DNA of 64,000 nucleotides from Escherichia coli (lineage in GTDB: Bacteria; Pseudomonadota; Gammaproteobacteria; Enterobacterales; Enterobacteriaceae): NCBI RefSeq assembly GCF_013122565.1, contig NZ_CP053258.1, one strand, 5' to 3'. The position numbers and the translations under genes are program-made. Shown here piece by piece: positions 908 through 53,854 of this stretch; the first letter of the stretch is position 1; each line of letters starts with the position of its first letter. The notes beneath the pieces are model-generated. The model was given only the letters and a program-made list of their open reading frames with translations. It was not told where the DNA came from and made no database searches.

Positions 908-949
908 TTGAATAACGGAGCCGAAAGGCTCCGTTTCTTTATCGGCTAA

Positions 950-2690: not shown

Positions 2691-2724
2691 AAAGCCGGGA
2701 AGATTTTATTTCCTACCCGGCTTT
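2691..2724. terminator. bidirectional hairpin between convergent SymE-like gene and immunity gene
   Basis: aaagccggg ... cccggcttt inverted repeat flanked by A and T runs. Confidence 0.45.
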
Positions 2725-2729
2725 TAACA

Positions 2730-3179
2730 TTAATGCTTCAAGGGGAATGACTTCATCAGTAATTCTTCTAAAGAAGAATATAAAAATTCCATTTCATAAG
2801 AGTCATGCAGAAAAACAAATATCTTACCATCTGTATTCATAAGAATAGGGTTTCCGCAGCCATCATCTGAAATAGCATAAAATGAATTCAATATATTTTT
2901 ATCAAGATCTTTATATATTTCCCTAAACTTCAGAGTAAGATCAACTACAGAAGCCTTTCCTACTAAGGAACCATTTTTAAAGGCATGTATAGCTATGCCA
3001 CCAAAGGCCCCACCAAATTTCTTAATAAACTCAATATATTGTATATTGAATTTAATATTTAATATTTTTTCAGCCTGAATGATCTCCTCATCAGAAGCTG
3101 GTATACCATATAGGACCATATCTTGGTCAGATGTTATCTCATCTCTGACTCTTGCTAGCAATTCTTCATTCATACGCAA
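2730..3179 (-). CDS. putative immunity protein (SMI1/KNR4, SUKH-like) for orphan rhs module 4
   Basis: 149 aa AT-rich ORF directly downstream of and overlapping the rhs tip; SUKH-like pattern. Confidence 0.55.
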   Translation of the reverse strand: MRMNEELLARVRDEITSDQDMVLYGIPASDEEIIQAEKILNIKFNIQYIEFIKKFGGAFGGIAIHAFKNGSLVGKASVVDLTLKFREIYKDLDKNILNSFYAISDDGCGNPILMNTDGKIFVFLHDSYEMEFLYSSLEELLMKSFPLKH

Positions 3180-4297
3180 CCGCCCCCTCTATTGCTTAAA
3201 ACTTTTTCAGCTTGTGATTTCCAGAATTCTTTTTTCCACAGGTTAAATTCTTGACGATTATTTATACCTGAACCTTTTTTATTTCCATTTGGGTGCTGAC
3301 CAGCGTTATTTGTACTTGAACCATGATGTTTATCTGGCATAGCAGTAATTGGCCCTTGTGATTGCTGCCTGTCATGGTGCAATACTATTACATTCCCTTG
3401 CCTATCGCTCGGAGATAAACCAAATGGATGAGGAGCATCATCACTGTTCATAAAAATAATTCTATTAAGCTCGGAATCACTTAAGTGACTTAAATCCGTG
3501 TAACCTGATACATCTAAAGTTAATCCTCTGCTATCAGTAAAAGTAACAGTTAAACCCAGAGGATCGATCCAACTTATTGGATTAGGCGCATATTGGTATA
3601 AGTTTATCCCACCCGCCAGCCCTATCGGGTCCTGACTGATAAACCTCCCGCACTCCGGCGCATAATACCTGAACAGATTGTAATGCAGTCCCGTCTCTTC
3701 ATCATAATACTGCCCCGGCAGCCGCAGCGGTTGCTCAAAGTACGCCCCGCTGTTGCTGATGTCGCCCCGGTTTTCACCAAATCCCGCCTGATAGCCCGCC
3801 CACACCAGCGTCCCGTCCGCCGCGGTCACCTCCTGTACCGTGCCCGTCAGGTCCGTGTGGTAATACCAGATTTTTTGACTCTCTCCGCGCCCGGTGATGG
3901 CGGCCACCGGCGTGTACGGCTGTTCCGCGTCGTACAGGTATGTCCGCTTTCCCTGCCACGTTGTCTCCTGCAACAGCCGGAACCCTTCCCACACAAACGT
4001 TGTCCGGCTTCGTTCTCCCCGGTCGGTATGGAGATTGCTGGTCGCCTTGCTGATGCGCCTGCCCAGCGCATCATACTGATACCGCGTCTCGCTGTTGCTG
4101 CTGATGACCCGCGTTAACTGACCCTGCGCGTTCCACTCCAGCTGTTGGTCCCTGCGCTCTGTCAGTTCGCCCCATTCGTTATAGCGGTAACGGTCACGCC
4201 CGTAGCCCGGCAGGCGGTTATCCGGCACCGCTCCCTGATGCTCATCCGTCAGCAGGTTGCCCGCTTTGTCGTAATAATAATGGTCATGGTCGTACAT
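3170..4297 (-). CDS. orphan Rhs C-terminal fragment 4: core repeat, DPLGL, His-rich HNH-like tip
   Basis: About 0.75 kb near-identical to the 3' core of the main rhs (homology to ~4335), then a divergent tip with VLHHDRQQSQGP...KHHG; no N-terminus of its own. Confidence 0.7.
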   Translation of the reverse strand: MYDHDHYYYDKAGNLLTDEHQGAVPDNRLPGYGRDRYRYNEWGELTERRDQQLEWNAQGQLTRVISSNSETRYQYDALGRRISKATSNLHTDRGERSRTTFVWEGFRLLQETTWQGKRTYLYDAEQPYTPVAAITGRGESQKIWYYHTDLTGTVQEVTAADGTLVWAGYQAGFGENRGDISNSGAYFEQPLRLPGQYYDEETGLHYNLFRYYAPECGRFISQDPIGLAGGINLYQYAPNPISWIDPLGLTVTFTDSRGLTLDVSGYTDLSHLSDSELNRIIFMNSDDAPHPFGLSPSDRQGNVIVLHHDRQQSQGPITAMPDKHHGSSTNNAGQHPNGNKKGSGINNRQEFNLWKKEFWKSQAEKVLSNRGGGCV

Positions 4298-8922: not shown

Positions 8923-8955
8923 AAAGCCGGGAAGGTAAATAAGCTTCCCGGCTTT
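8923..8955. terminator. bidirectional intrinsic terminator hairpin
   Basis: 12 bp perfect stem aaagccgggaag / cttcccggcttt with 9 nt loop, flanked by A-run and T-run. Confidence 0.6.
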
Positions 8956-8975: not shown

Positions 8976-9464
8976 TTAATCATAAGCATCGCCGTAATTT
9001 TCATATTTCCAATAAATATATTTACCACCTGAGCTATATAATTTATGCAATAATTCTGTAAAAGTCATTGCAATAATTGGACAACTACCTACAACGCCAT
9101 GTATCTCATAATTGCTATCATAACAGCGTCCATTTCTTTCTGTAGAAAAATCAATGGATAAATAATCATTATTATCGGTCCTGCAAATTAAGTACCATGA
9201 AGATGATATATCATCCTCACATGGCTCACCAACTATAAATTTATTTGCCTGTAATATTTCATTATTTTTCAAAATAGTGAAGGAGATTTCCTGCTCTTCA
9301 GAGCAAAACAATTTTATTCCATTACATATTTTGTAAAAACGAACAACATCATCAGGATATTTTAAATAATCAGATGGTAATAAAGGCAAATTACCATCTG
9401 GTGGAATAACTTCACATCTGTTATCATTTTTTATCAAGTCAAGTAATTCATCAATGCCATTCAT
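8976..9464 (-). CDS. putative immunity protein (SUKH-like) for orphan rhs module 1
   Basis: 162 aa AT-rich ORF downstream of the orphan tip; LLPSDYLKY...FYKICNG pattern. Confidence 0.5.
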   Translation of the reverse strand: MNGIDELLDLIKNDNRCEVIPPDGNLPLLPSDYLKYPDDVVRFYKICNGIKLFCSEEQEISFTILKNNEILQANKFIVGEPCEDDISSSWYLICRTDNNDYLSIDFSTERNGRCYDSNYEIHGVVGSCPIIAMTFTELLHKLYSSGGKYIYWKYENYGDAYD

Positions 9465-9473
9465 ATTACCACC

Positions 9474-11312
9474 TTAAAAAATAACAGTATCAAACTTCCC
9501 AGAGTATATAAACTGGTTCAATGCCCGGTAATATGCTTCCCTACTGGCAACAGGAACATTTGCGGCATCAAACATTCGTTCAGTAAGATCTTTCATTTCT
9601 CTGCTACTTACTGTTGTCCAATCCACTTTCCCACCAACTCTTCTTCCGGTTTTCTGCTCTAACCAATCTCTATATACTTTTTTTGTTGCAGCATGATTAG
9701 CCTCGGATAATGCAATTGTTGGTGACTTTGAAGGATATTTCCCTCCATAAGATGGCACATTCTTAGACATCCAAATATCAAGCACACCATGATGGTTTTC
9801 TAAAGAGGAATTAATTGGTCGATAAGGAACAACATCAAACTCTTTAACTTCACCGCACTTAAGTCCAAGGGGATCTATCCACCCCAGCGGATTCGGCGCA
9901 TAAGCATACTGGTTCAGCCCACCCGCCAGCCCTATCGGGTCCTGGCTTACGAACCGCCCGCACTCCGGCGCATAATACCTGAACAGATTATAGTGCAGCC
10001 CCGTCTCTTCATCATAATACTGCCCCGGCAGCCGCAGCGGCTGTTCAAAGTACGCCCCGCTGTTGCTGATATCGCCCCGGTTTTCGCCAAATCCCGCCTG
10101 GTAGCCCGCCCACACCAGCGTCCCGTCCGCCGCGGTCACCTCCTGTACCGTGCCCGTCAGGTCCGTGTGGTAATACCAGATTTTTTGACTCTCTCCGCGC
10201 CCCGTGATGGCGGCCACCGGCGTGTACGGCTGTTCCGCGTCGTACAGGTATGTCCGCTTTCCCTGCCACGTTGTCTCCTGCAACAGCCGGAACCCTTCCC
10301 ACACAAACGTTGTCCGGCTTCGTTCTCCCCGGTCCGTATGGCGGCCATATGTCGCCTTGCTGATGCGCCTGCCCAGCGCATCATACTGATACCGCGTCTC
10401 GCTGTTGCTGCTGATGACCCGCGTTAACTGGCCCTGCGCGTTCCACTCCAGCTGCTGGTCCCTGCGCTCTGTCAGTTCGCCCCATTCGTTATAGCGGTAG
10501 CGGTCACGCCCGTAGCCCGGCAGGCGGTTATCCATCACCGCTCCCTGATATTCATCCGTCAGCAGGTTGCCCGCTTTATCGTAATAATAATGGTCATGGT
10601 CATACATCTGCCCCGTGCGGCTGGTCAGCCAGCCGCTGCGGTCATAGCTGAACACCAGGCAACCGCGCAGTTTGTCATTGATGCCGCCGACTTCACCGTC
10701 TGCGTTCCAGATATAGTCCCGCGCTGTCACGCTGTCGCTGTGTGACGGGGGTGTGGCTGTCTGCTGTGGGTTCTGGCTGCCGCCTGGCAGGCTGCGCTGC
10801 CAGCTTAACCGGTTGTCGGCGTTGTAGCCGCTGAACGTCGCCAGTTTCCCCTGGGTGCGCATCACCTGACGGTGCAGACTGTCACGCTCATATTCACTGA
10901 CCGTGATACCGTCCAGTGCCGTCTGGAGCAGATGTCCGCTGCCGTAGTAAAGATGGCTGAGGTGCTGCCCGTTCGGTAACGTGATGTCGGTGGGATTGCC
11001 CAGCGCGTCACGCTGATATTTTATGCTGCCGTGCACGCTGTGCTCTGCCGTCAGCCACCCGCTGCGGTCATACGCAAAGCGCACCGTGTCCGCCTGCATG
11101 TGGTGCAGCCGTTCCCCTTCTTTCGTCGGGGTGAGCGTCACTTCCGTTATCTGGTCAAGACGGTTGTAGCTGAAGGTCCGTGTACTGTGCTGCGTGTCAC
11201 TGCGCAACAGGCGGCCCAGCGCATCACGCTCCTGTCGCTCATTACGCACCCCGCCTTCTGTACCCTGCGTCTGGATGATGACCGGATACCCGCCCGCATT
11301 CAGCACAAACAT
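9474..11312 (-). CDS. orphan Rhs C-terminal fragment 1: core repeat, DPLGL, unassigned toxin tip
   Basis: About 1.6 kb homologous to main rhs (to ~11476, where an in-frame stop precedes it); first ATG at 11312; tip ~130 aa with no recognizable motif. Confidence 0.7.
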   Translation of the reverse strand: MFVLNAGGYPVIIQTQGTEGGVRNERQERDALGRLLRSDTQHSTRTFSYNRLDQITEVTLTPTKEGERLHHMQADTVRFAYDRSGWLTAEHSVHGSIKYQRDALGNPTDITLPNGQHLSHLYYGSGHLLQTALDGITVSEYERDSLHRQVMRTQGKLATFSGYNADNRLSWQRSLPGGSQNPQQTATPPSHSDSVTARDYIWNADGEVGGINDKLRGCLVFSYDRSGWLTSRTGQMYDHDHYYYDKAGNLLTDEYQGAVMDNRLPGYGRDRYRYNEWGELTERRDQQLEWNAQGQLTRVISSNSETRYQYDALGRRISKATYGRHTDRGERSRTTFVWEGFRLLQETTWQGKRTYLYDAEQPYTPVAAITGRGESQKIWYYHTDLTGTVQEVTAADGTLVWAGYQAGFGENRGDISNSGAYFEQPLRLPGQYYDEETGLHYNLFRYYAPECGRFVSQDPIGLAGGLNQYAYAPNPLGWIDPLGLKCGEVKEFDVVPYRPINSSLENHHGVLDIWMSKNVPSYGGKYPSKSPTIALSEANHAATKKVYRDWLEQKTGRRVGGKVDWTTVSSREMKDLTERMFDAANVPVASREAYYRALNQFIYSGKFDTVIF

Positions 11313-28187: not shown

Positions 28188-28871
28188 CTAATGGGCGATG
28201 AGTAAATTAGAGAAATGCAACCAGTTGTTGACAATAAAATTGCCATAGCTGGTATCTTCCTTTATTTTCTCCAGAGTAAGCGACATACCCCGGTTATAAC
28301 GGGCACCAATAATTCTTATCTGCTCTTTCGTCAGGTGTGGTAAGGAGGACTGAAATTCATCTCTTTCAGCTAATTTATAAATATGTCTGGCCACAAGTTG
28401 AATATTAAAAATATCATGCTGGAGGCAATTTGCCAGTTCACGCAATTGAGAGGTATCCATTTTTGACTCATCAAGCCCAAGCGTTCTGGCTGCGGTTCGC
28501 AATTGCATACTCACTGCACCAAAAGATGTTTTTTCTGGTCTCGAAGTTATTGTGATATGTTCATCAATCCACTCAGGCCCACTCCAGTCAATAGTCCGAG
28601 CATCAAATGCCAGCATATCTACAATACTGGGATCCCCCCCGACTTCTATCCAACACACACCTGCCAGTAAAGGTGCTGGCAAATTATATGTATTGGCAGC
28701 CGACGTTATCAGAAGATGGTTATGTTTTACCCAGCCATCTTTGAAATAACGCCCAAACGGTACACCACCGCCCCATTTTTTTGGCGCTAATTTCCAGAAA
28801 AGAAATTCGGTCACGCCCCATACCGGTGAATGATTCGATGCATTGCAGTCCAGATTATTCATTTTTCTCAC
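28188..28871 (-). CDS. lytic-transglycosylase (SLT)-like protein, T6SS-associated
   Basis: 227 aa, no signal peptide; LAGVCWIEVGGDP and FGAVSMQLRTAARTLGLD resemble the SLT Glu and GLMQ motifs. Confidence 0.45.
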   Translation of the reverse strand: MRKMNNLDCNASNHSPVWGVTEFLFWKLAPKKWGGGVPFGRYFKDGWVKHNHLLITSAANTYNLPAPLLAGVCWIEVGGDPSIVDMLAFDARTIDWSGPEWIDEHITITSRPEKTSFGAVSMQLRTAARTLGLDESKMDTSQLRELANCLQHDIFNIQLVARHIYKLAERDEFQSSLPHLTKEQIRIIGARYNRGMSLTLEKIKEDTSYGNFIVNNWLHFSNLLIAH

Positions 28872-30184
28872 TCCACCACCAGAATTTCCACCCGACGGTT
28901 CTGCGCCCGTCCGGTTTTAGTGCTGTTATCGGCCACCGGTACGGTATCTCCTTTCCCGACGACCCGAATCCGGCTGACCGGAACACCACCGGACGTCAGC
29001 AGTGAAGCCACTTCCGTCGCCCGTTTTTCCGACAACACCTGGTTGGAGGGGAATTCAGCGGAGTGGATCGGCTGACTGTCGGTGTGTCCGGTCACCGTCA
29101 CCGCGCCGCCCACACGCGCAATCTCTCGCGCGGCCTTATCAATCACCGGGCTTAGCGCATCATTCACGGTTTTCTGCCCTGGTATAAACATCGTATCGCC
29201 ACGAAAGATTACACGGCTGTGATGGTCATCTTCCTCCACCGTCAGCAGGCCACGGGCGATTTCGTTCGCCAGCAGGATTTTCAGCCGCAGTTTATGCACT
29301 GGAACGGGTGGCGGCGGTAGATTTTTACCAATGGCGTCGATACGCTGTTGTACGGTTTCGGTAGCGAGGTTCATCCGGTGGCTGTAAAGGCCAAACAGCG
29401 TCAGCATCACCAGCAGAGCGATTCCGGCGCTCAGCCAGACCGGCACCCGGCGCATCCGCCGCATTCGCCCACTGACGGCACCGGCAAAACCCGGCGAGAG
29501 CATCGGCGTGATTGGATCGCGACGCTGGACCAGTTGAGTCAGCAGTTGCTGACGGATATCGTCCAGTTGCTTACGCCCGTCAGGCCGTACACTGTAGCGG
29601 CCTTCAAAACCCAGCCCCAGAATGTGGTAGATGATCTCCAGTACATCGTTGTGCTCCTGGAAGCTTGCGGCCAGACGCCCAATTATCTGAAACAGCTTGA
29701 TGCCGCCTTCACTTTCGCCATGAAAAGTGACCAGCAGGCTTTTTCCAGCCCAGACACCGCGCCGTCCCCAGGTGGTGTTGTTGGCGGCTTCGTCCAGCGA
29801 AGTGCATAGGCAATAACGCACAGCCAGCACATGTTCGCGGCGAAGGTTTGCTTGATCGCATAACGTCTGATATCGACGAACTTCACGCTCCAGTAGGGCG
29901 CGATAATGTTCGACAAAACCAGGGGATAGTTCACGGGGCATTTGCGCCAGCGCGCATAACAGAGGGCTGGCCGCCGCCAGGAGAGGATTCACAGCACCAG
30001 TGATCTCAGCCAAACGGAGCTTCAAATCTGGCCCGTCTTCAACCACCACCTTTATATCTTCCCTGCGAAGGCTGTCCTGGATGAGCGTATCGTAACCTTC
30101 ATTATCAGGCGACCTTGTTCCCTTCATTGAAGTCTGTAATGGCAGAGTATTCACCGCAGGTTGCGTCAGAATATCGTCGGTCAT
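28868..30184 (-). CDS. tssL: TssL (DotU) with C-terminal OmpA-like peptidoglycan-binding extension
   Basis: 438 aa; central transmembrane helix; C-terminus ...NRRVEILVVE typical of OmpA/MotB domains. Confidence 0.85.
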   Translation of the reverse strand: MTDDILTQPAVNTLPLQTSMKGTRSPDNEGYDTLIQDSLRREDIKVVVEDGPDLKLRLAEITGAVNPLLAAASPLLCALAQMPRELSPGFVEHYRALLEREVRRYQTLCDQANLRREHVLAVRYCLCTSLDEAANNTTWGRRGVWAGKSLLVTFHGESEGGIKLFQIIGRLAASFQEHNDVLEIIYHILGLGFEGRYSVRPDGRKQLDDIRQQLLTQLVQRRDPITPMLSPGFAGAVSGRMRRMRRVPVWLSAGIALLVMLTLFGLYSHRMNLATETVQQRIDAIGKNLPPPPVPVHKLRLKILLANEIARGLLTVEEDDHHSRVIFRGDTMFIPGQKTVNDALSPVIDKAAREIARVGGAVTVTGHTDSQPIHSAEFPSNQVLSEKRATEVASLLTSGGVPVSRIRVVGKGDTVPVADNSTKTGRAQNRRVEILVVE

Positions 30185-31524
30185 TTATCGCGAACTCCCC
30201 ACAGCTCCAGCTCCAGGCCTGGAAACTCTCCGGCGGTATGCATTGCCATACCGCCATAGCGGGCGATATGTTCCCACAACACGCCGTCGCGGCGGATGTC
30301 GTAATAGATGTAACCGGACTGAAACGGGATCTGACGCGGTGGCACTGGCAGCACCTGTAGAACAAGACCAGGAAGGTGCGAGCGAATTAGTTCCGGCAGG
30401 CGTTCTGACGGCCCTATTTTGGTCTGAGCCGAAAAATGTTGTAGTAAGGTGTCGGCGGACATCTGTGCCTTCACCGCCAATACTAACGAGCTGAAATCTG
30501 ACAGTTCGGTAGGTTCAACCACCGCATTGAGAATACCGTAAATTCCCTCTTCCAGAGGGATTCGCTGCGCCCCACGTATTAGCACAGCATTCAGCAGATA
30601 CTGAACCTCGTCCACTACCGATTTCAGCCCGGCATAGGGCGTCAAATGCTTATATTCTTTATATTCTTCCGGACGGCGTGTTTGCGGGCGCACGTAGGTA
30701 GAGAGTTCTCCGGCAAGTGCGCAGAGGTTACGATACAGCACCTCAGGCGACAGCGGTGTTTTCGACATATGGATCAGTAAGGGGCCGAAACGATTAAGAA
30801 CTTGCAGAAGCAGGTAATCAGACACTTCCGCCGCTTCATGACCGTGTTTGTCGCTCCCCGTCAATCGTTCCGCCAGTGAATTTGCACGCATTTTTATCAG
30901 ATCGTTAATCCACGATAGCCAGGTACATATCAGCGTACTGGCCTGGTAGTTCGCCACTGGCGGGATCAACTCTTTGTCTATATCGACCCGACCATCGGGA
31001 TGCAGCGCCGTGATGCGTGTCAGCGGCAGGCCGATCCACGCGTCTGTCACCGCCTTTTCCGGTAATAGTCGCAAGCGTAGGTGGCTAAGTTGCAGCAGTT
31101 GCGCGCCGCGCCCTAGCGAATTGGCATCACGGATTTCATTTTCATGCACCGAAAAGCGTGCCAGTGATTCAGGGTTATTGTCGAAGCTTGTTTCTTCACT
31201 GTTCGGCGTACGTATTGGCACAGCCAGATAAATCAACTGGTTAAGATGTTCTGGAAGGATGGTCAGAGGCGGCGGGAGTGGTGTGTGACCCGGCGCATTA
31301 AAAGGAGTACCGTCAGCAAATACTCCGGAAGCCTTTGTAAGTACCAGTTTTCCGATGTTCAGCGCCTCACTACCAATTCCATACTCATTGAACCCCCAGA
31401 AAAAAGGTGAAAGAGGCAAACTGCGATAATGAATGACATGTTCCAGATAGCGTTCCTGCTGCTGAAACATCTGTGGCAGCAAAAATTGTCCTTCACTCCA
31501 GACCACCCGGTTATTCCAACTCAT
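30181..31524 (-). CDS. tssK: T6SS baseplate protein TssK
   Basis: 447 aa; N-terminus MSWNNRVVWSEGQFLLPQMFQQQERYLE typical of TssK. Confidence 0.9.
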   Translation of the reverse strand: MSWNNRVVWSEGQFLLPQMFQQQERYLEHVIHYRSLPLSPFFWGFNEYGIGSEALNIGKLVLTKASGVFADGTPFNAPGHTPLPPPLTILPEHLNQLIYLAVPIRTPNSEETSFDNNPESLARFSVHENEIRDANSLGRGAQLLQLSHLRLRLLPEKAVTDAWIGLPLTRITALHPDGRVDIDKELIPPVANYQASTLICTWLSWINDLIKMRANSLAERLTGSDKHGHEAAEVSDYLLLQVLNRFGPLLIHMSKTPLSPEVLYRNLCALAGELSTYVRPQTRRPEEYKEYKHLTPYAGLKSVVDEVQYLLNAVLIRGAQRIPLEEGIYGILNAVVEPTELSDFSSLVLAVKAQMSADTLLQHFSAQTKIGPSERLPELIRSHLPGLVLQVLPVPPRQIPFQSGYIYYDIRRDGVLWEHIARYGGMAMHTAGEFPGLELELWGVRDK

Positions 31525-31527
31525 AAT

Positions 31528-32061
31528 TTACTCATCCCGTTCTTTAATCACTATGGCGCTTTGCTCTATGCCAGCATCCAGTTCGACTTTTTTCTTCGGC
31601 ATAAAGCGGCTGTACCAACTTTTTTCCGGTGGCTCAGGAATTTTATATGTAGCCCGCCAGACCGATTTTCCCAGATTGCGGTATCCGGCGAGGATCCCCA
31701 GCGTGGTGGTTTCCTTATTGAGGGCGCGGCGCAATTTTTTCTCCTCGCCCGGACGCAGGATAAAGCTGTCGCGGTGGAGTAAATCATCAGCAAGAACAGC
31801 CTTGTCATTGTCCTGAAGGGACCACCAGTCCGCCGCCGTGAAAGCTGCATCATTTTTCAGTTCATAAACGCGTATCTCTATGGGCGCGGCTTTTTTCTGA
31901 TTGTCAGGATTCACCTTATCGGAAGCCTTAATCACCAGATCGAGTCTTTGTGACATCAGGTCCGGCACGTCGTCGCTGTCAATGCTGCACCCGGAAAGCA
32001 GGCAGACAAAAGACAAAGCTACCGCACATAACCACCCACCGGGGTTACGCCATTTATTCAC
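31528..32061 (-). CDS. tssJ: T6SS outer-membrane lipoprotein TssJ (start moved to GTG at 32061)
   Basis: Lipobox LLSGCS after a signal peptide; GTG with AAGGAA RBS 8 nt upstream; the longer ORF would overlap hcp. Confidence 0.75.
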   Translation of the reverse strand: MNKWRNPGGWLCAVALSFVCLLSGCSIDSDDVPDLMSQRLDLVIKASDKVNPDNQKKAAPIEIRVYELKNDAAFTAADWWSLQDNDKAVLADDLLHRDSFILRPGEEKKLRRALNKETTTLGILAGYRNLGKSVWRATYKIPEPPEKSWYSRFMPKKKVELDAGIEQSAIVIKERDE

Positions 32062-32087
32062 TGTAATTTCCTTTAAACTCAAATAAT

Positions 32088-32120
32088 AAAAACCGGCCTG
32101 GCTATTTGCCGGGCCGGAAA
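32088..32120 (-). terminator. hairpin plus U-run downstream of hcp (terminator or attenuator)
   Basis: ccggcc ... ggccgg stem followed by ttttt on the transcribed strand, between hcp stop and tssJ start. Confidence 0.4.
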
Positions 32121-32128
32121 AGTACTGC

Positions 32129-32614
32129 TTAAATTTCTTTATTGGCCTTGAAGTCGTAGCCTGCGGTGATGGTGCCGCCGCTGCCACCTTGCTGGTTCTG
32201 CACCACGTATTCCTGCTTCACGGTGCTGAAAGAGAGTTCGACCATTTCACGGGAGGCAATCTCCCCTTCCTTGCTGCCACTGGGAGATACAACAGCCACA
32301 ATAAGGTCAGTGAAGGTATATTTGAGATATTCCAGCGGATTGCCGCCTGCTTTACGCATGGTCAGCACAGCTTTCGGAATGTGTTTGCCGGAGGCGCAGT
32401 ATTTGAACAGGTTAGGACTGGCACGATCGATATAGTGGTCAAAGTCCAGGTTGGTCACGGAGACTTTACCGGATCCCAGGCCACTGCCCGCGTGCATGGT
32501 GGACTCCTGGTGAATATTCCAGCGCCAGCTCAGCACCTCAATTTCATTTTTATGTTTGTCATCCATTGACTCGCCGTCAATGCCGTCAATTTTCAGAAAA
32601 ATGTCATAAGCCAT
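32129..32614 (-). CDS. hcp: Hcp tube protein (TssD)
   Basis: 161 aa from the second ATG (RBS spacing favors it); MAYDIFLKIDGIDGES, typical Hcp. Confidence 0.9.
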   Translation of the reverse strand: MAYDIFLKIDGIDGESMDDKHKNEIEVLSWRWNIHQESTMHAGSGLGSGKVSVTNLDFDHYIDRASPNLFKYCASGKHIPKAVLTMRKAGGNPLEYLKYTFTDLIVAVVSPSGSKEGEIASREMVELSFSTVKQEYVVQNQQGGSGGTITAGYDFKANKEI

Positions 32615-32831
32615 TTTCATTTCCTTATTAAGAATTACTTAAAATAATCTCTGGTTTATCTTCGCATCTGAATTCAGGTAAACCATAGCCGTACAGAACC
32701 TCCTCTCCTTAATTTAAGAAGAACAGAAGGCTCTATATTTTTCAGAACTTAAGTACCAGACAGAAAATCATTCACGAAATAAATGTTTATCAATTATATA
32801 TAGTTAACTGATAACATATTCTACTGGACTT

Positions 32832-33287
32832 TCATTCACATATTAAAGATACGGGTTTCTCCCTTGGTGGTTCATCGAAATAAAGAGTCTTACAGGAATG
32901 AGTATTTACAGGTACTGGCTGAGATAACCAGACCAGTCCGTAGCTATAAATACAGGAAAACCAGTATCTGTCGCTCTCTTTCGCTGTCGCGCCTTCTGTA
33001 TTCCATATCAACCATGTTTCCTGTTTTATTTTTTTCATCTCTGGCTTCTGATCGCCAAAATTTTCCGGTTTATCCTGTGTGACACTAATATGCGTTAACC
33101 ACTGACGAGGCTCCTGCCGTGGGGAAACTCTCCATTGCGGCTGGACAAATGATTTCAGAACCGCGGTGTAAGGCTCCGTTTCAACAAAAACAGGACAAGT
33201 AACTTCCCATGCCGACACATTTTGTGCATAAAACAAGGCAACACCAGAAAGAAGCAATACAGGAAAGCGCATCATCGTACCTTCCAT
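32832..33287 (-). CDS. putative secreted immunity protein (Tai-like)
   Basis: 151 aa with signal peptide, directly downstream of the amidase-like gene. Confidence 0.5.
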   Translation of the reverse strand: MEGTMMRFPVLLLSGVALFYAQNVSAWEVTCPVFVETEPYTAVLKSFVQPQWRVSPRQEPRQWLTHISVTQDKPENFGDQKPEMKKIKQETWLIWNTEGATAKESDRYWFSCIYSYGLVWLSQPVPVNTHSCKTLYFDEPPREKPVSLICE

Positions 33288-33670
33288 TATTCAATTACAT
33301 AAAATGCTTCAGCATTACTGCTGGCGCTGGGATACGAACCGTCAGAGTTTGCTCCGCCTTTCGGTCTGAGTTGATGTTTTTCGATTCTGATCTGCGTTCT
33401 CCACTGATCCATAACCCAGATCCCTCGTTTATCCTGCCCCAGATAGAATGCAGCATGATTACCTGAACTCCTGCCAGGCCATCGCCCATTAAAAAAAGTG
33501 GCAATAGCGGTACCTTTTGGAATGGTGGTGTCCCCCCACACTTTCTTACCCGCACGCCATGTTGCTGTGGAGCCAAGATGTGCATACCTTTTAACCAGAG
33601 TTACACACTCACCATCCCCCACTAATGGCTGCCCCTGTAATAAATCCACTGATTCATAAACTCGCGACAT
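33287..33670 (-). CDS. putative Cys/His papain-fold peptidoglycan amidase effector (Tae-like)
   Basis: 127 aa; candidate catalytic Cys (GECVTLVKRY) and His (NHAAFY) about 60 residues apart; sits between tssC and hcp where SPI-6-type islands carry tae/tai. Confidence 0.5.
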   Translation of the reverse strand: MSRVYESVDLLQGQPLVGDGECVTLVKRYAHLGSTATWRAGKKVWGDTTIPKGTAIATFFNGRWPGRSSGNHAAFYLGQDKRGIWVMDQWRTQIRIEKHQLRPKGGANSDGSYPSASSNAEAFYVIE

Positions 33671-33709: not shown

Positions 33710-35224
33710 TCAGGCATTACCCTGTTTTACCGACGGCAGTTTTGTGACCAGACGCAGTGATCCTGTTAACCCTTCAAGCTGAAAATGCGGGCGCAGGAAG
33801 AATTTGGCATCGTAATAACCCGGATTACCTTCCACCTCTTCCACCACCACTTCGGCTGCTGCTAGTGGGCGACGAGCTTTGGTTTCCTGTGAGGAGTTCA
33901 CCGGATCGGCATCGACGTAGTTCATGATCCACTCATTGAGCCAGCGCTGCATATCTTCACGCTCTTTGAACGAGCCGATCTTGTCGCGCACGATACATTT
34001 GAGGAAGTGCGCAAACCGTGAACAGGCGAAAAGATATGGCAAACGAGCTGAGAGATTAGCGTTGGCCGTAGCGTCCGGATCGTAATATTCCTGCGGTTTT
34101 TGCAGCGACTGTGCGCCAATAAAGGCGGCATAATCGGAGTTTTTGCGGTGGATCAGCGGGATAAAACCGTTTTTGGCCAGTTCAGCTTCACGGCGATCAG
34201 AGATGGCAATTTCCGTCGGGCATTTCATATCCACGCCGCCGTCATCGGTCGGGAAGGTATGACAGGGTAGATTTTCCACCGCGCCACCAGATTCAACACC
34301 ACGGATCAACGTACACCAACCGTAATGTTTGAAAGAACGGTTGATATTTACACCCATTGCATAGGCGGCATTGCTCCAGACATATTTGCTGTGATCTGCG
34401 CCATCCGCATCTTCTTCAAAATCAAACTCATCTACAGGGTTTGTTTTCGCACCATAAGGCAAACGGGAGAGGAAACGTGGCATCGTCAGGCCAATGTAGC
34501 GAGAATCCTCACTTTTCCGCAGCGAGTTCCACGGTGCGTATTCGAGGTTTTGGGTCACAATTTTGGTCAAATCACGCGGGTTAGCCAGTTCCTGCCAGGA
34601 GTCCATCTGCAACACTGACGGAGAGGCCCCGGCAATAAACGGCGCATGGGCTGAGGCTGCTACTTTGGCAATGGAACCGAGCAGATCCACATCCGGTGGC
34701 GTGTGATCAAAATAATAATCCGCAATAATACAACCGTAAGGTTCTCCACCTAACTGTCCATATTCAGCTTCATACAGCTTTTTGAACATGGGGCTTTGAT
34801 CCCAGGCTATCCCTTTGTAACGTTTCATATTTTTCCGCAATTCATCCTTCGAAAGGTTCATAAAGCGGATTTTTAATTTTTCATCGGTTTCAGTGTTGTA
34901 AACCAAATGTTCCATCCCACGCCAGGAGGACTCCAGTTTCTGAAATTCCGGATGACTCAGGATGAGTTTGATCTGCTCGGTTAATTTGAAATCAATCTGC
35001 TCAATAATCGCAGCAATACTTTTATAAGCGTCGTCACTGACGGTGACGGTATTTGTCAGAGCCTGTTGGGCCAGCGTCTGAACTGCTGCCTCAACAGCCT
35101 TTGCTGCCTGAGGTGTCTTGGGACGGAAGGCTTTATCCAGGAGCGAATCAAATTCAGTGTCCTGATAGGCAGTGGTTTGCGCAGCAGAGAGATCGCCAGT
35201 CGCCAGAAGAGTATCGTTTACCAT
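33710..35224 (-). CDS. tssC: T6SS sheath large subunit TssC (VipB)
   Basis: 504 aa; conserved TssC sequence. Confidence 0.92.
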   Translation of the reverse strand: MVNDTLLATGDLSAAQTTAYQDTEFDSLLDKAFRPKTPQAAKAVEAAVQTLAQQALTNTVTVSDDAYKSIAAIIEQIDFKLTEQIKLILSHPEFQKLESSWRGMEHLVYNTETDEKLKIRFMNLSKDELRKNMKRYKGIAWDQSPMFKKLYEAEYGQLGGEPYGCIIADYYFDHTPPDVDLLGSIAKVAASAHAPFIAGASPSVLQMDSWQELANPRDLTKIVTQNLEYAPWNSLRKSEDSRYIGLTMPRFLSRLPYGAKTNPVDEFDFEEDADGADHSKYVWSNAAYAMGVNINRSFKHYGWCTLIRGVESGGAVENLPCHTFPTDDGGVDMKCPTEIAISDRREAELAKNGFIPLIHRKNSDYAAFIGAQSLQKPQEYYDPDATANANLSARLPYLFACSRFAHFLKCIVRDKIGSFKEREDMQRWLNEWIMNYVDADPVNSSQETKARRPLAAAEVVVEEVEGNPGYYDAKFFLRPHFQLEGLTGSLRLVTKLPSVKQGNA

Positions 35225-35248: not shown

Positions 35249-35794
35249 TTAGTCTGCTGTTCCCGTTTCACCTGATAAGACACTTTCCTGTTGAGCGACA
35301 GGTTTTGGCGCACTGGCCAGAGCTTTCAGTAACGTAGGGTCTTGTAATAGTTTGTTGATAAGATTTTCTGCTCCCGCTTTACCATCCATATACGTTTGTA
35401 GGTTGGCAAGCTGAGTACGCGCTTCCAGCAGCTGGTTCAGGGCATCCACCTTACGGGCAATCTGCGCAGGCGAAAAATCGTCCATATTCTCCAGCGTGAT
35501 ATCGACCATTAACTGCCCTTCGCCCGTCAGCGTATTGGGGACAGCAAACGCCACGCGCGGCGCAATGGCTTTCATCCGCTCGTTGAAGTTATCGATATCA
35601 ATATCAAGGAATTTACGATCGGTGACCGGTGGCAGCTCTTCGCGAGGTTTACCGGCCAGATCGGCCAGCACCGCCATGACAAACGGCAGTTCGATTTTTT
35701 TCTCGGAGCCGTAAATCTCAACGTCATACTCAATCTGCACGCGGGGCGCACGGTTGCGGGCAATAAACTTCTGCGCGCTATTGTTGATAGCCAT
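35249..35794 (-). CDS. tssB: T6SS sheath small subunit TssB (VipA)
   Basis: 181 aa; ...APRVQIEYDVEIYGSEKKIELPFVMAVLADL typical of TssB. Confidence 0.92.
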   Translation of the reverse strand: MAINNSAQKFIARNRAPRVQIEYDVEIYGSEKKIELPFVMAVLADLAGKPREELPPVTDRKFLDIDIDNFNERMKAIAPRVAFAVPNTLTGEGQLMVDITLENMDDFSPAQIARKVDALNQLLEARTQLANLQTYMDGKAGAENLINKLLQDPTLLKALASAPKPVAQQESVLSGETGTAD

Positions 35795-50041: not shown

Positions 50042-50088
50042 CAAACCAGATAATAAAAAGGCACCGATTCCCCCGGTGCCTTTTTTAT

Positions 50089-51977: not shown

Positions 51978-52892
51978 ATGAAAGCCACGTCGGAAGAACT
52001 CGCCATTTTTGTTTCGGTCGTCGAAAGCGGCAGCTTTAGCCGGGCAGCGGAACAATTAGGGCAAGCAAACTCAGCGGTAAGCCGGGCGGTGAAAAAGCTG
52101 GAGATGAAACTTGGCGTTAGCCTGCTTAATCGGACCACGCGACAACTTAGCCTGACGGAAGAAGGCGAGCGTTATTTTCGTCGCGTACAGTCAATTTTGC
52201 AGGAGATGGCAGCGGCAGAATCAGAAATTATGGAGACGCGTAATACACCGCGTGGACTGTTACGGATCGATGCCGCAACTCCAGTGGTGCTGCACTTTCT
52301 AATGCCGTTAATTAAGCCTTTCCGTGAACGCTATCCGGAAGTCACTTTATCGCTAGTCTCCTCCGAAACGATTATTAATTTGATCGAAAGAAAAGTGGAT
52401 GTCGCGATACGCGCCGGTACGTTAACGGATTCCAGCTTACGTGCCAGACCGTTATTTAACAGTTATCGAAAAATTATCGCCTCCCCCGATTATATTTCCC
52501 GCTACGGGAAGCCAGAAACGATCGACGATTTAAAGCAACATGTTTGCCTGGGATTCACTGAACCCGCTTCCCTCAATACCTGGCCGATAGCCTGTAGTGA
52601 TGGACAATTACATGAGGTGAAGTACGGTTTGTCATCCAATAGTGGGGAAACACTGAAACAGCTTTGCCTGAGTGGCAACGGGATTGCGTGTTTGTCCGAC
52701 TACATGATCGACAAAGAAATCGCTCGCGGAGAATTGGTGGAGTTAATGGCAGATAAAGTGTTGCCAGTGGAAATGCCATTCAGTGCAGTCTATTACAGCG
52801 ACCGTGCGGTAAGTACGCGCATCCGGGCTTTTATCGATTTCCTTAGCGAGCATGTAAAAACAGCTCCCGGAGGAGCTGTCAGAGAGGCTTAA
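51978..52892 (+). CDS. yafC: LysR-family transcriptional regulator YafC
   Basis: 304 aa; N-terminal helix-turn-helix and LysR substrate-binding domain. Confidence 0.85.
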
Positions 52893-53692
52893 TCCCATTC
52901 AGGAGCCAGACCTTCCGGACTAACCAGGCGGTCGTTGCAATCCAGTGCGGCGATCGCTTTTTTATCTTCGACATCAAGCTGTAAATTTTGTGCCTTAAGA
53001 TTACTCTCCAGGTTTTCACGTTTAGTAGAAGAAGGAATTACTGAGTAACCTTCCCCCATAGCCCACGCCAGAATCACTTGTGCCGGAGTCGCATTGTGTT
53101 TAGCTGCGATACGAGCAATAACCTCATCTTTCAGGGCCTTACCATACGCCAGCGTCATATAGGAAGTAATATGGATGCCGTGCTGTTTAGCCCAGGCAAC
53201 CACTTTACGGTTTTGCAGATAAGGAGAGAGTTCAATCTGGTTAGTAGCGATGTTTTCAGCGCCAACAGCAGCAATCGCTTTTTCCATCAACGGGATCGTG
53301 AAGTTGGAAATACCGATCTCACGCGTCAGCCCTTGTTTTTTGGCTTCCCGCAGCGCCTGCATAAACTCTTCAACAGAGACTTCATCGTTTGGTGACGGCC
53401 AGTGGATTAGCGTCAGATCAACATAATCGGTACGCAATTTTTGCAGGCTCTCTTTTAGACTCGGGATCAATTTGTCTTTGCTGAGATTTTCAATCCAGAT
53501 TTTAGTGGTGATGTAGAGTTCATGACGTGGCACGCCACTTTCTGCAATCGCCTGACCTACTGCGGCTTCGTTATCATAGATTTGTGCGGTATCAATTGCG
53601 CGATAACCAAGTTCAAGCGCCGTTTTCACAGATGAAATAACAACGTCGTCTTTCAGACGGAAAGTACCTAAACCAAATGCAGGGATAGCCAT
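52889..53692 (-). CDS. dkgB: 2,5-diketo-D-gluconate reductase B (aldo-keto reductase)
   Basis: 267 aa; aldo-keto reductase family; position next to aspU. Confidence 0.9.
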
Positions 53693-53854
53693 AATATGCC
53701 TCTTTTAATGCTATTTTCGTTAACTGAGGTGATTATGGGCTTCAGACTGTTGCGGAAAAAGAGCGTAAAACGCAGAGGATTTTTGCGATTCTGGCAATAA
53801 TAGATATCCAGACGAAAAAAAACCTCGAGCATTAACTCGAGGCTTCTTAATAAG

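What the first reader, a model, noticed from the sequence alone, without database searches (positions are those of the whole stretch)
32088..32120. Hairpin plus U-run immediately after hcp
A GC stem followed by five U residues sits between hcp and tssJ on the transcribed strand. A partial terminator here would allow excess Hcp transcript relative to downstream genes.
Basis: seen in the sequence. Interest (0 to 1): 0.3.

Follow-up and report, generated by a model that had tools for sequence, protein, structure and literature searches.

The report
Terminator-type hairpin ending the hcp message
A conserved RNA hairpin followed by a run of U sits right after the tube-protein gene (hcp) of an E. 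coli type VI secretion operon and most likely keeps hcp message more abundant than the genes downstream; this kind of element has already been shown experimentally in two other type VI systems, so it is real but ordinary.

Summary
On the minus strand a 25-nt GC-rich stem-loop (32117-32093, about -18 kcal/mol, one C.A mismatch) lies 11 nt after the hcp stop codon. It is followed by UUUUU (32092-32088) and AUUAUUU, and the tssJ GTG start is 26 nt past the U-run. It is the second-best terminator-like site in the 64 kb window; none of 20 shuffled windows produced an equal. It occurs once per genome in the 114 of 5,426 complete E. coli genomes that carry this cluster, so it is not a dispersed repeat. 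Sixteen distinct enterobacterial variants keep the helix (94% paired, two compensatory pairs, G.U wobbles valid only on the hcp sense strand). In 66 Hcp-homologue loci, unrelated hairpins occupy the same position. Only about a third carry a U-run.

Best reading: a Rho-independent terminator-type element inside the operon. It ends part of the transcripts after hcp and protects the hcp 3' end, while read-through feeds tssJKL.

Two published cases fix the kind. EHEC hcp3-vgrG3 "h3R" both terminates and stabilises. Yersinia hcp4 stabilises but showed no termination. Termination and pure 3' protection cannot be separated without transcript data. This is a new member of a known kind, of low to moderate interest.

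The parts
32129..32614 (-). hcp (T6SS tube protein, 161 aa; the ORF is open to 32620)
   Evidence: Pfam T6SS_HCP 8.7e-40; RefSeq annotation of the 99.8% identical strain LHM10-1
32118..32128 (-). 11-nt spacer between the hcp stop codon and the hairpin, ending in UUUU
   Evidence: Sequence. Spacing is 10-11 nt in all 16 enterobacterial variants.
32093..32117 (-). GC-rich stem-loop: 5' arm 32117-32108, loop 32107-32103, 3' arm 32102-32093, with a C.A mismatch at 32111/32099
   Evidence: Fold -18.4 kcal/mol, z -4.05. 94.4% of cells paired across 16 variants, with compensatory changes at two pairs.
32081..32092 (-). U-tract: UUUUU (32092-32088) then AUUAUUU
   Evidence: Sequence. T5-6 is kept in 13 of 16 variants. 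It contributes to d = 37.1.
32062..32080 (-). tssJ translation initiation region (AAGGAA Shine-Dalgarno at about 32073-32068); there is no room for a separate promoter
   Evidence: Sequence. No promoter-like site on this strand between 32062 and 32620.
31528..32061 (-). tssJ (outer-membrane lipoprotein, GTG start), first of the downstream tssJ-tssK-tssL genes with 3-nt gaps or overlaps
   Evidence: Pfam T6SS-SciN 3.7e-37; RefSeq annotation; ORF list

Best explanation
The element is an RNA structure on the hcp sense strand: a Rho-independent terminator-type hairpin plus U-tract placed inside the T6SS operon at the hcp-tssJ junction. As RNA polymerase passes it, a fraction of transcripts end at the U-run (32092-32088). 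Those transcripts carry the hairpin at their 3' end, which shields hcp mRNA from 3'-to-5' exonucleases. The remaining polymerases read through and produce tssJ, tssK, tssL and the genes behind them. The net effect is more hcp message than membrane-complex and baseplate message. This fits the need for hundreds of Hcp copies per tube, which are lost at each firing. Shown here: the structure exists, it is far beyond chance, it is conserved with compensatory changes on this strand, and equivalent hairpins occupy the same position in distant relatives. Inferred: that it terminates, that termination is partial, and that it stabilises hcp mRNA.
For: (1) The site is a canonical terminator. The stem is about -18 kcal/mol, the closing pairs next to the tail are GGCCGG, a U5 run follows directly, and it lies 11 nt past the stop codon. 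It scores d = 37.1, second best in the window, and 0 of 20 shuffled windows reach that score.
(2) Sixteen distinct variants from E. coli, Escherichia sp., Citrobacter, Enterobacter and gut metagenomes keep the helix. 94.4% of cells are paired, against 9-53% when the partner columns are slid. There are A-U to C-G and G-C to A-U double changes, and G.U pairs at three positions that would be A.C mismatches on the opposite strand.
(3) The 67-nt spacer occurs exactly once in each of 114 E. coli genomes and nowhere else, so it is not a REP-type repeat.
(4) In 66 Hcp-homologue loci the 100 nt after the hcp stop fold far better than shuffles: mean z -2.59, with 65% below -2. Controls give 0.08 inside hcp, -0.50 upstream and -0.43 inside downstream genes (Wilcoxon p about 1e-9). 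21 of 66 loci have a terminator-like site (d > 0) within 120 nt, against a background of 0.0056 per 120 nt on the same strand of the same loci. In the loci checked before the run timed out, the next gene was usually TssJ-like.
(5) Only 26 nt, filled by the tssJ ribosome-binding region, separate the U-run from the tssJ GTG, and no promoter-like site was found. Downstream core genes therefore need read-through.
(6) Experimental precedent comes from EHEC hcp3. Its hairpin starts 8 nt after the stop codon, has a 14-bp stem and is followed by UUUUUGUAUUA. Deleting it halves upstream-gene expression and doubles the downstream reporter, and hcp3 and vgrG3 are not co-transcribed (PMC13141884).
Against: There are no transcript data for this locus. 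In Yersinia pseudotuberculosis T6SS4, chromosomal mutation of the GC-rich stem after hcp4 did not change downstream transcript levels (PMC12503267). A hairpin after hcp therefore need not terminate. Among non-enteric relatives (the Burkholderia cepacia-complex group and Snodgrassella) the hairpin is not followed by a U-run, so the feature conserved across the clade is the stem. The window's own copy carries a C.A mismatch and is weaker than the perfect stems of sister variants (-17.7 against -20.5 kcal/mol). Conservation of the U/A-rich tail could instead reflect the tssJ translation initiation region. The covariation rests on few, closely related sequences. The d-score formula was taken from memory, although the shuffle control does not depend on its provenance.
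Confidence: 0.6

Rival explanations
1. The hairpin is a 3' protective stem-loop only (an 'mRNA decay terminator'). Polymerase reads through essentially always. The polycistronic RNA is cut by an endonuclease in the AU-rich single-stranded stretch after the hairpin. The hairpin then blocks PNPase and RNase II, so the hcp segment outlives the downstream segment.
For: This is the direct experimental result for the stem-loop after hcp4 in Yersinia pseudotuberculosis: the stem mutant lowered hcp4 mRNA and left downstream genes unchanged (PMC12503267). Many distant relatives have the hairpin without a U-run. An AU-rich unpaired stretch, UUUUUAUUAUUUGAGUUUAAA, follows the stem. Conserved hairpins also lie in the hcp leader, matching the Yersinia model of 5' and 3' loops flanking hcp.
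Against: All five enterobacterial genomic loci carry a strong U-tract directly on the stem, with d = 36-49, and 13 of 16 variants keep T5-6. Such a combination normally terminates E. coli RNA polymerase. The anatomically equivalent EHEC element reduced downstream expression.
Confidence: 0.27
2. The hairpin is a full terminator that makes hcp the end of one operon, and tssJKL is driven by its own promoter, as proposed for hcp3 and vgrG3 in EHEC.
For: In EHEC, hcp3 and vgrG3 were not co-transcribed and a promoter was predicted in the spacer. A -10-like hexamer, TATTAT or TATTGT, lies within the U/A tail.
Against: There are only 26 nt between the U-run and the tssJ GTG, against 209 nt in EHEC. 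The best -35 candidates match 2-3 of 6 positions by my reading of the sequence. The promoter scan found nothing on this strand between 32062 and 32620. Any promoter upstream of the hairpin would itself be terminated by it.
Confidence: 0.08
3. The palindrome has no RNA function. It is either a chance feature or acts at the DNA level, as a protein-binding site or a recombination scar at the edge of the swappable effector-immunity-hcp cassette.
For: Effector/immunity genes upstream of hcp differ between strains. One metagenomic contig has a duplicated hcp-hairpin-tssJ' junction.
Against: 0 of 20 shuffled windows reach its score. G.U pairs and compensatory changes point to RNA pairing on the sense strand. 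Sequence-unrelated hairpins occupy the same position in three bacterial families. Homology between cassette variants breaks upstream of hcp, not at the hairpin.
Confidence: 0.04

Closest known systems
EHEC O157:H7 EDL933 hcp3-vgrG3 regulatory region 'h3R', region I (PMC13141884, 2026)
   Same: Both are in E. coli T6SS loci. Both have a GC-rich hairpin a few nt after the hcp stop (+8 in EHEC, +12 here), directly followed by U5 and an AU-rich tail. In EHEC the element was shown to raise expression of the upstream gene and lower the downstream one.
   Different: The sequence is unrelated and the EHEC stem is a 14-bp perfect helix. It belongs to a different T6SS cluster. The downstream gene is vgrG3, after a 209-nt spacer with a predicted promoter (two operons). 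Here tssJ starts 26 nt after the U-run, so read-through is required.
Yersinia pseudotuberculosis T6SS4 stem-loop between hcp4 and tssE4 (PMC12503267, 2025)
   Same: [quoted passage not shown] A second stem-loop lies upstream of hcp; conserved leader hairpins exist here too.
   Different: The experiment pointed to 3' protection after endonucleolytic cleavage, not termination. The downstream gene is tssE. I could not read its sequence, so whether it has a U-run is unknown.
Classical intra-operon attenuators and intercistronic stabilisers (rplL-rpoB attenuator; malE-malF REP; Rhodobacter puf stem-loop; pap operon papA) - from general knowledge and the citations in PMC12503267
   Same: A hairpin placed after the cistron needed in highest amount sets unequal mRNA levels within one operon.
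   Different: These are unrelated genes and sequences. The malE-malF element is a dispersed REP repeat, whereas this one is single-copy.

Membership tests
Intrinsic (Rho-independent) terminator | GC-rich stem-loop with a short loop, stable relative to shuffled sequence | tested here: met
   9 pairs plus 1 mismatch, 5-nt loop, -18.4 kcal/mol, z -4.05
Intrinsic (Rho-independent) terminator | U-tract immediately 3' of the stem on the transcribed strand | tested here: met
   UUUUUAUUAUUU starts at the base after the stem. The combined score d = 37.1 is exceeded by 0 of 20 shuffled windows.
Intrinsic (Rho-independent) terminator | Transcript 3' ends or RNA release at the U-tract | not testable with these tools
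   Needs Term-seq, 3'-RACE or in vitro transcription
Intra-operon attenuator (partial terminator) | Downstream co-directional genes depend on read-through (no promoter of their own) | tested here: inconclusive
   26 nt between the U-run and the tssJ GTG, and no promoter-like site; a weak -10-like TATTAT in the tail cannot be excluded
Intra-operon attenuator (partial terminator) | Measured termination efficiency well below 100% | not testable with these tools
   No transcript data for this locus
3' protective stem-loop (mRNA decay terminator), as after Yersinia hcp4 | Stable stem-loop at the 3' end of the upstream cistron, conserved as a structure | tested here: met
   Covariation in 16 variants; hairpins at the same position in 66 loci, mean z -2.59 against about 0 in controls
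3' protective stem-loop (mRNA decay terminator), as after Yersinia hcp4 | Loss of the stem lowers upstream mRNA without changing downstream transcription | not testable with these tools
   Requires stem mutants with qRT-PCR or half-life measurement
REP/BIME dispersed palindromic repeats | Many copies dispersed in intergenic regions of the genome | tested here: not met
   Exactly one place per genome in 114 genomes and none in the other 5,312
Any curated Rfam RNA family | Match reaching the family's gathering score | tested here: not met
   The best overlapping hits are OxyS at 16.1 bits (gathering 75) and isrO at 13.3 bits (gathering 42), both chance-level

The most novel reading that the evidence does not exclude
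A stem-loop at the hcp-tssJ junction may be an ancient, position-conserved but sequence-free feature of this whole T6SS lineage (Enterobacteriaceae, Snodgrassella, Burkholderia, Paraburkholderia, Cupriavidus). It would be maintained because it sets tube-to-machine stoichiometry. Lineages would have switched between a U-tract form (terminator) and a U-less form (pure 3' protection). Read-through may even be regulated, for example by Hfq or CsrA binding at the U-rich flanks and the AAGGA motifs.
Probability: 0.3. Interest if true: 0.45.

Novelty: new member of a known kind. Interest (0 to 1): 0.25.

Why it matters
Hcp is consumed at every firing and is needed in far greater numbers than the membrane-complex and baseplate proteins encoded behind it. 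A hairpin at the hcp 3' end is a simple way to uncouple their mRNA levels within one operon. For people trying to switch on silent enterobacterial T6SS clusters by promoter swapping, such an element matters in practice, because it can limit expression of everything downstream of hcp, as was found in EHEC. The cross-family survey here suggests the arrangement is general for this T6SS lineage and not a peculiarity of the two published cases. It adds no new mechanism.

Tried and rejected
- The consensus terminator scan did not list the site. The internal mismatch explains this, so I wrote a mismatch-tolerant scan.
- An Rfam search at permissive E-values found nothing meaningful.
- The REP/dispersed-repeat idea is rejected: the spacer is single-copy.
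- I looked for a tssJ promoter in or after the hairpin. No sigma-70-like site was found by the scan. By eye, TATTAT in the tail has only 2-3 of 6 matches at -35, and no sigma-54 GG-N10-GC motif is present. I treat an own promoter as unlikely, not excluded.
- Two long Python runs timed out. Their printed partial output was used only qualitatively, and the statistics were recomputed. One search crashed on an index error and was rerun.
- Literature: the Salmonella SPI-6 promoter paper of Brunet et al. 2015 (PMC4468533) is not held. Searches for STM0279/STM0280 and for a monocistronic hcp Northern blot gave nothing useful. The Citrobacter tssM paper and the T6SS regulation review contain nothing on this junction. 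The Neisseria paper discusses DUS inverted repeats, not hcp.
- I could not obtain the Yersinia hcp4 spacer sequence to check it for a U-run.

Full report
**Context**

The window carries a type VI secretion (T6SS) cluster on the minus strand. The ORF list, Pfam and the RefSeq annotation of a 99.8% identical E. coli chromosome, strain LHM10-1, agree on the gene order:
- tssB, 35249-35794
- tssC, 33710-35224
- a 127-aa BPSL0067-family gene, 33287-33670
- a 151-aa STY0301-family gene, 32832-33287
- hcp, 32129-32614
- tssJ, 31528-32061, with a GTG start
- tssK, 30181-31524
- tssL, 28868-30184

The hcp-tssJ spacer is 67 nt (32062-32128). The cluster is present in 114 of 5,426 complete E. coli genomes.

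**The observation**

On the minus strand the spacer reads TAA-GCAGUACUUUU-CCGGCCCGGC-AAAUA-GCCAGGCCGG-UUUUU-AUUAUUUGAGUUUAAAGGAAAUUACA-GUG.
- The stem-loop occupies 32117-32093. It has six G-C/C-G pairs, one C.A mismatch, three more pairs and a 5-nt loop.
- The five U residues are 32092-32088.
- The 41-nt core folds at -18.4 kcal/mol, with 97% of the ensemble in this hairpin and z = -4.05. The whole spacer gives z = -2.65.
- The consensus scan missed it because of the mismatch.
- A mismatch-tolerant scan of my own combines hairpin energy per length with a decaying U-tract score. It uses the d'Aubenton-Carafa form, whose coefficients I recalled from memory. The site scores d = 37.1, second of 431 candidates on both strands of the window.
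- In 20 dinucleotide shuffles of the 64 kb, no site reached 37 and the best was 24.0.

The observation and its coordinates are confirmed and are well beyond chance.

**Is it a repeat or a known RNA family?**

The 67-nt spacer matches exactly one place in each of the 114 genomes that have the cluster and nothing elsewhere. RefSeq annotates nothing under it. Rfam gives only chance-level hits. It is therefore neither a REP/BIME element nor a curated RNA family.

**Conservation among close relatives**

I collected spacers from three sources:
- five E. coli genomes
- four species representatives: Escherichia sp., Citrobacter amalonaticus, Enterobacter sp. and E. coli E69
- 19 metagenome contigs, retrieved with a pattern taken only from the Hcp C-terminus, so the search was not biased toward the hairpin

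These give 16 distinct sequences (alignment A1). For the 10-pair helix, the results are as follows:
- 94.4% of cells form standard pairs, against 9-53% when the 3' partners are slid by 1-3 columns.
- Pair 21/33 is A-U in 9 sequences, C-G in 2, G.U in 1, and unpaired in 4. The window's C.A is one of the unpaired cases.
- Pair 23/31 switches from G-C to A-U in 3 sequences.
- G.U wobbles occur at 17/37, 18/36 and 24/30. They would be A.C mismatches on the other strand, which places the selected structure on the hcp sense RNA.
- The U-run is T5-6 in 13 of 16 variants. It is degraded in three: UUCUUUAU in two, and AUUUAUUG in one copy on contig L090.

The sample is small and closely related, so this is supportive evidence, not proof.

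**Conservation of position in distant relatives**

The Hcp protein retrieved 67 loci from species-representative genomes. Four are enterics. The rest are mostly Snodgrassella, Burkholderia, Paraburkholderia, Caballeronia, Cupriavidus and Ralstonia, at 59-73% Hcp identity.
- In the loci checked before the run timed out, the next gene was usually TssJ-like, and a strong hairpin of unrelated sequence followed the hcp stop.
- Over the 66 usable loci (65 retrieved loci plus the window), the first 100 nt after the stop have a mean folding z of -2.59, with 65% below -2. Controls give 0.08 inside hcp, -0.50 for the 100 nt upstream and -0.43 inside downstream genes (Wilcoxon p about 1e-9 to 1e-10). The loci are phylogenetically related, so these p-values overstate independence. 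However, the hairpins belong to many different sequence groups.
- A terminator-like site (hairpin plus at least 3 of 4 T, d > 0) lies within 120 nt of the stop in 21 of 66 loci. The background is 19 such sites in 406,832 nt of the same strand of the same loci, or 0.0056 per 120 nt.
- All five enteric loci score 36-49. The Burkholderia cepacia-complex group and Snodgrassella have long stems but no U-run.

What the whole lineage shares is therefore a stable hairpin after hcp. The U-tract is lineage-specific.

**What is already known**

Two recent papers describe the same kind of element.
- **Yersinia pseudotuberculosis T6SS4.** hcp4 mRNA is much more abundant than the downstream genes, and a GC-rich stem-loop lies directly after hcp4. 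Mutating the stem on the chromosome lowered hcp4 mRNA but did not change downstream transcripts. The authors propose a 3' protective loop after endonucleolytic cleavage, paired with a 5' loop upstream of hcp4 (PMC12503267).
- **EHEC EDL933.** The hcp3-vgrG3 spacer 'h3R' contains a hairpin at +8 after the hcp3 stop. hcp3 and vgrG3 are not co-transcribed. In a gfp-h3R-mCherry reporter, deleting the hairpin region halves the upstream signal and doubles the downstream one (PMC13141884). I fetched that spacer. It has a 14-bp perfect stem with a 4-nt loop, then UUUUUGUAUUA, and the 81-nt stretch analysed folds at -28.2 kcal/mol with z = -4.22. The architecture is the same as in the window and the sequence is unrelated.

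**Mechanism**

My leading explanation (confidence about 0.6) is that the element acts as a terminator-type hairpin inside the operon. Part of the transcripts end at the U-run and keep the hairpin as a protective 3' end, and the rest read through.

The argument for partial termination is an inference. The U-run is 26 nt from the tssJ GTG, and that stretch is the tssJ ribosome-binding region. No promoter-like site is found on this strand between 32062 and 32620. tssJ-K-L and the genes behind them are core components.

The main rival (about 0.27) is pure 3' protection without termination, as measured in Yersinia. The U-less hairpins of distant relatives favour it. The strong, conserved U-tract of all enteric copies and the EHEC reporter data argue against it.

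A full terminator with an own tssJ promoter (about 0.08) is unlikely for lack of space. A chance or DNA-level palindrome (about 0.04) is contradicted by the shuffles, by the wobble and compensatory pattern, and by the positional conservation.

**Verdict**

The element is a new member of a known kind. The only modestly new point is that a hairpin at the hcp 3' end appears general across this T6SS lineage. Interest is low to moderate (0.25).

Noticed in passing
window 8926-8952 (-) and 2694-2721 (-): Two near-identical strong terminator hairpins (GCCGGGAAG...CUUCCCGGC followed by UUUUUUAUUAUUUAA; d = 31.6 and 15.9). Each lies just after a SUKH/SMI1-KNR4 immunity gene (8976-9464 and 2730-3179) that follows an Rhs C-terminal nuclease toxin (Tox-SHH in 9474-11312; LHH in 3170-4297). 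Both are followed by the same sequence, UUCGUUCAGCACACUAAACAUCCCGUC. They look like repeated boundaries of stacked Rhs toxin/immunity cassettes.
   Followed up: partly
window 32640-32740 (-), the hcp leader: The 211-nt spacer upstream of hcp folds with z = -2.77. It contains a 13+5-bp hairpin at about 32692-32737 (pyrimidine arm CCUUCUGUUCUUCU against AGGAGAGGAGG) and a second hairpin, GGUUUACCUG...GAUAAACC, nearer the start codon. Both recur with base changes that keep pairing in Escherichia, Citrobacter and Enterobacter copies; the second also occurs in the Tae4/Tai4-type E. coli variants. This recalls the 5' loop proposed upstream of Yersinia hcp4. AAGGA motifs sit at the ribosome-binding sites of both hcp and tssJ.
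   Followed up: partly
window 32832-33670 (-): Between tssC and hcp lie a 127-aa protein (RefSeq: BPSL0067 family, with a GECVTLVKRY cysteine motif) and a 151-aa protein that looks like it has an N-terminal signal peptide (RefSeq: STY0301 family). Neither has a Pfam hit. In other E. coli strains the same slot holds Tae4/Tai4. This is probably a swappable effector-immunity pair, with homology between variants resuming just upstream of hcp.
   Followed up: partly
L090 (metagenome contig VOFL01000128.1), 158-2418: Two hcp genes lie 1.8 kb apart. Each is followed by its own version of the hairpin and by the first bases of tssJ. The first tssJ start is only a remnant and is followed by 161-aa and 127-aa ORFs (Tae4/Tai4-sized) and then the second hcp. 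This suggests cassette insertion by recombination at the hcp-hairpin-tssJ junction. One of the two hairpin copies has a degraded U-run (AUUUAUUG).
   Followed up: partly
window 53823-53842 (-), 50060-50080 (both strands), 52928-52957 (+), 52861-52878 (-), 916-933 (both strands): These are other high-scoring terminator-like hairpins in the window (d = 21-40.5), including two that are bidirectional. I did not examine them further.
   Followed up: no
L001 (E. coli LHM10-1) against window 28868-30184: In the 99.8% identical RefSeq genome, tssL and tagJ are annotated as pseudogenes with internal stops. The window's tssL ORF is intact (438 aa). Several other E. coli copies carry internal stops in tssK or hcp, so the cluster seems to be decaying in part of the population.
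   Followed up: no
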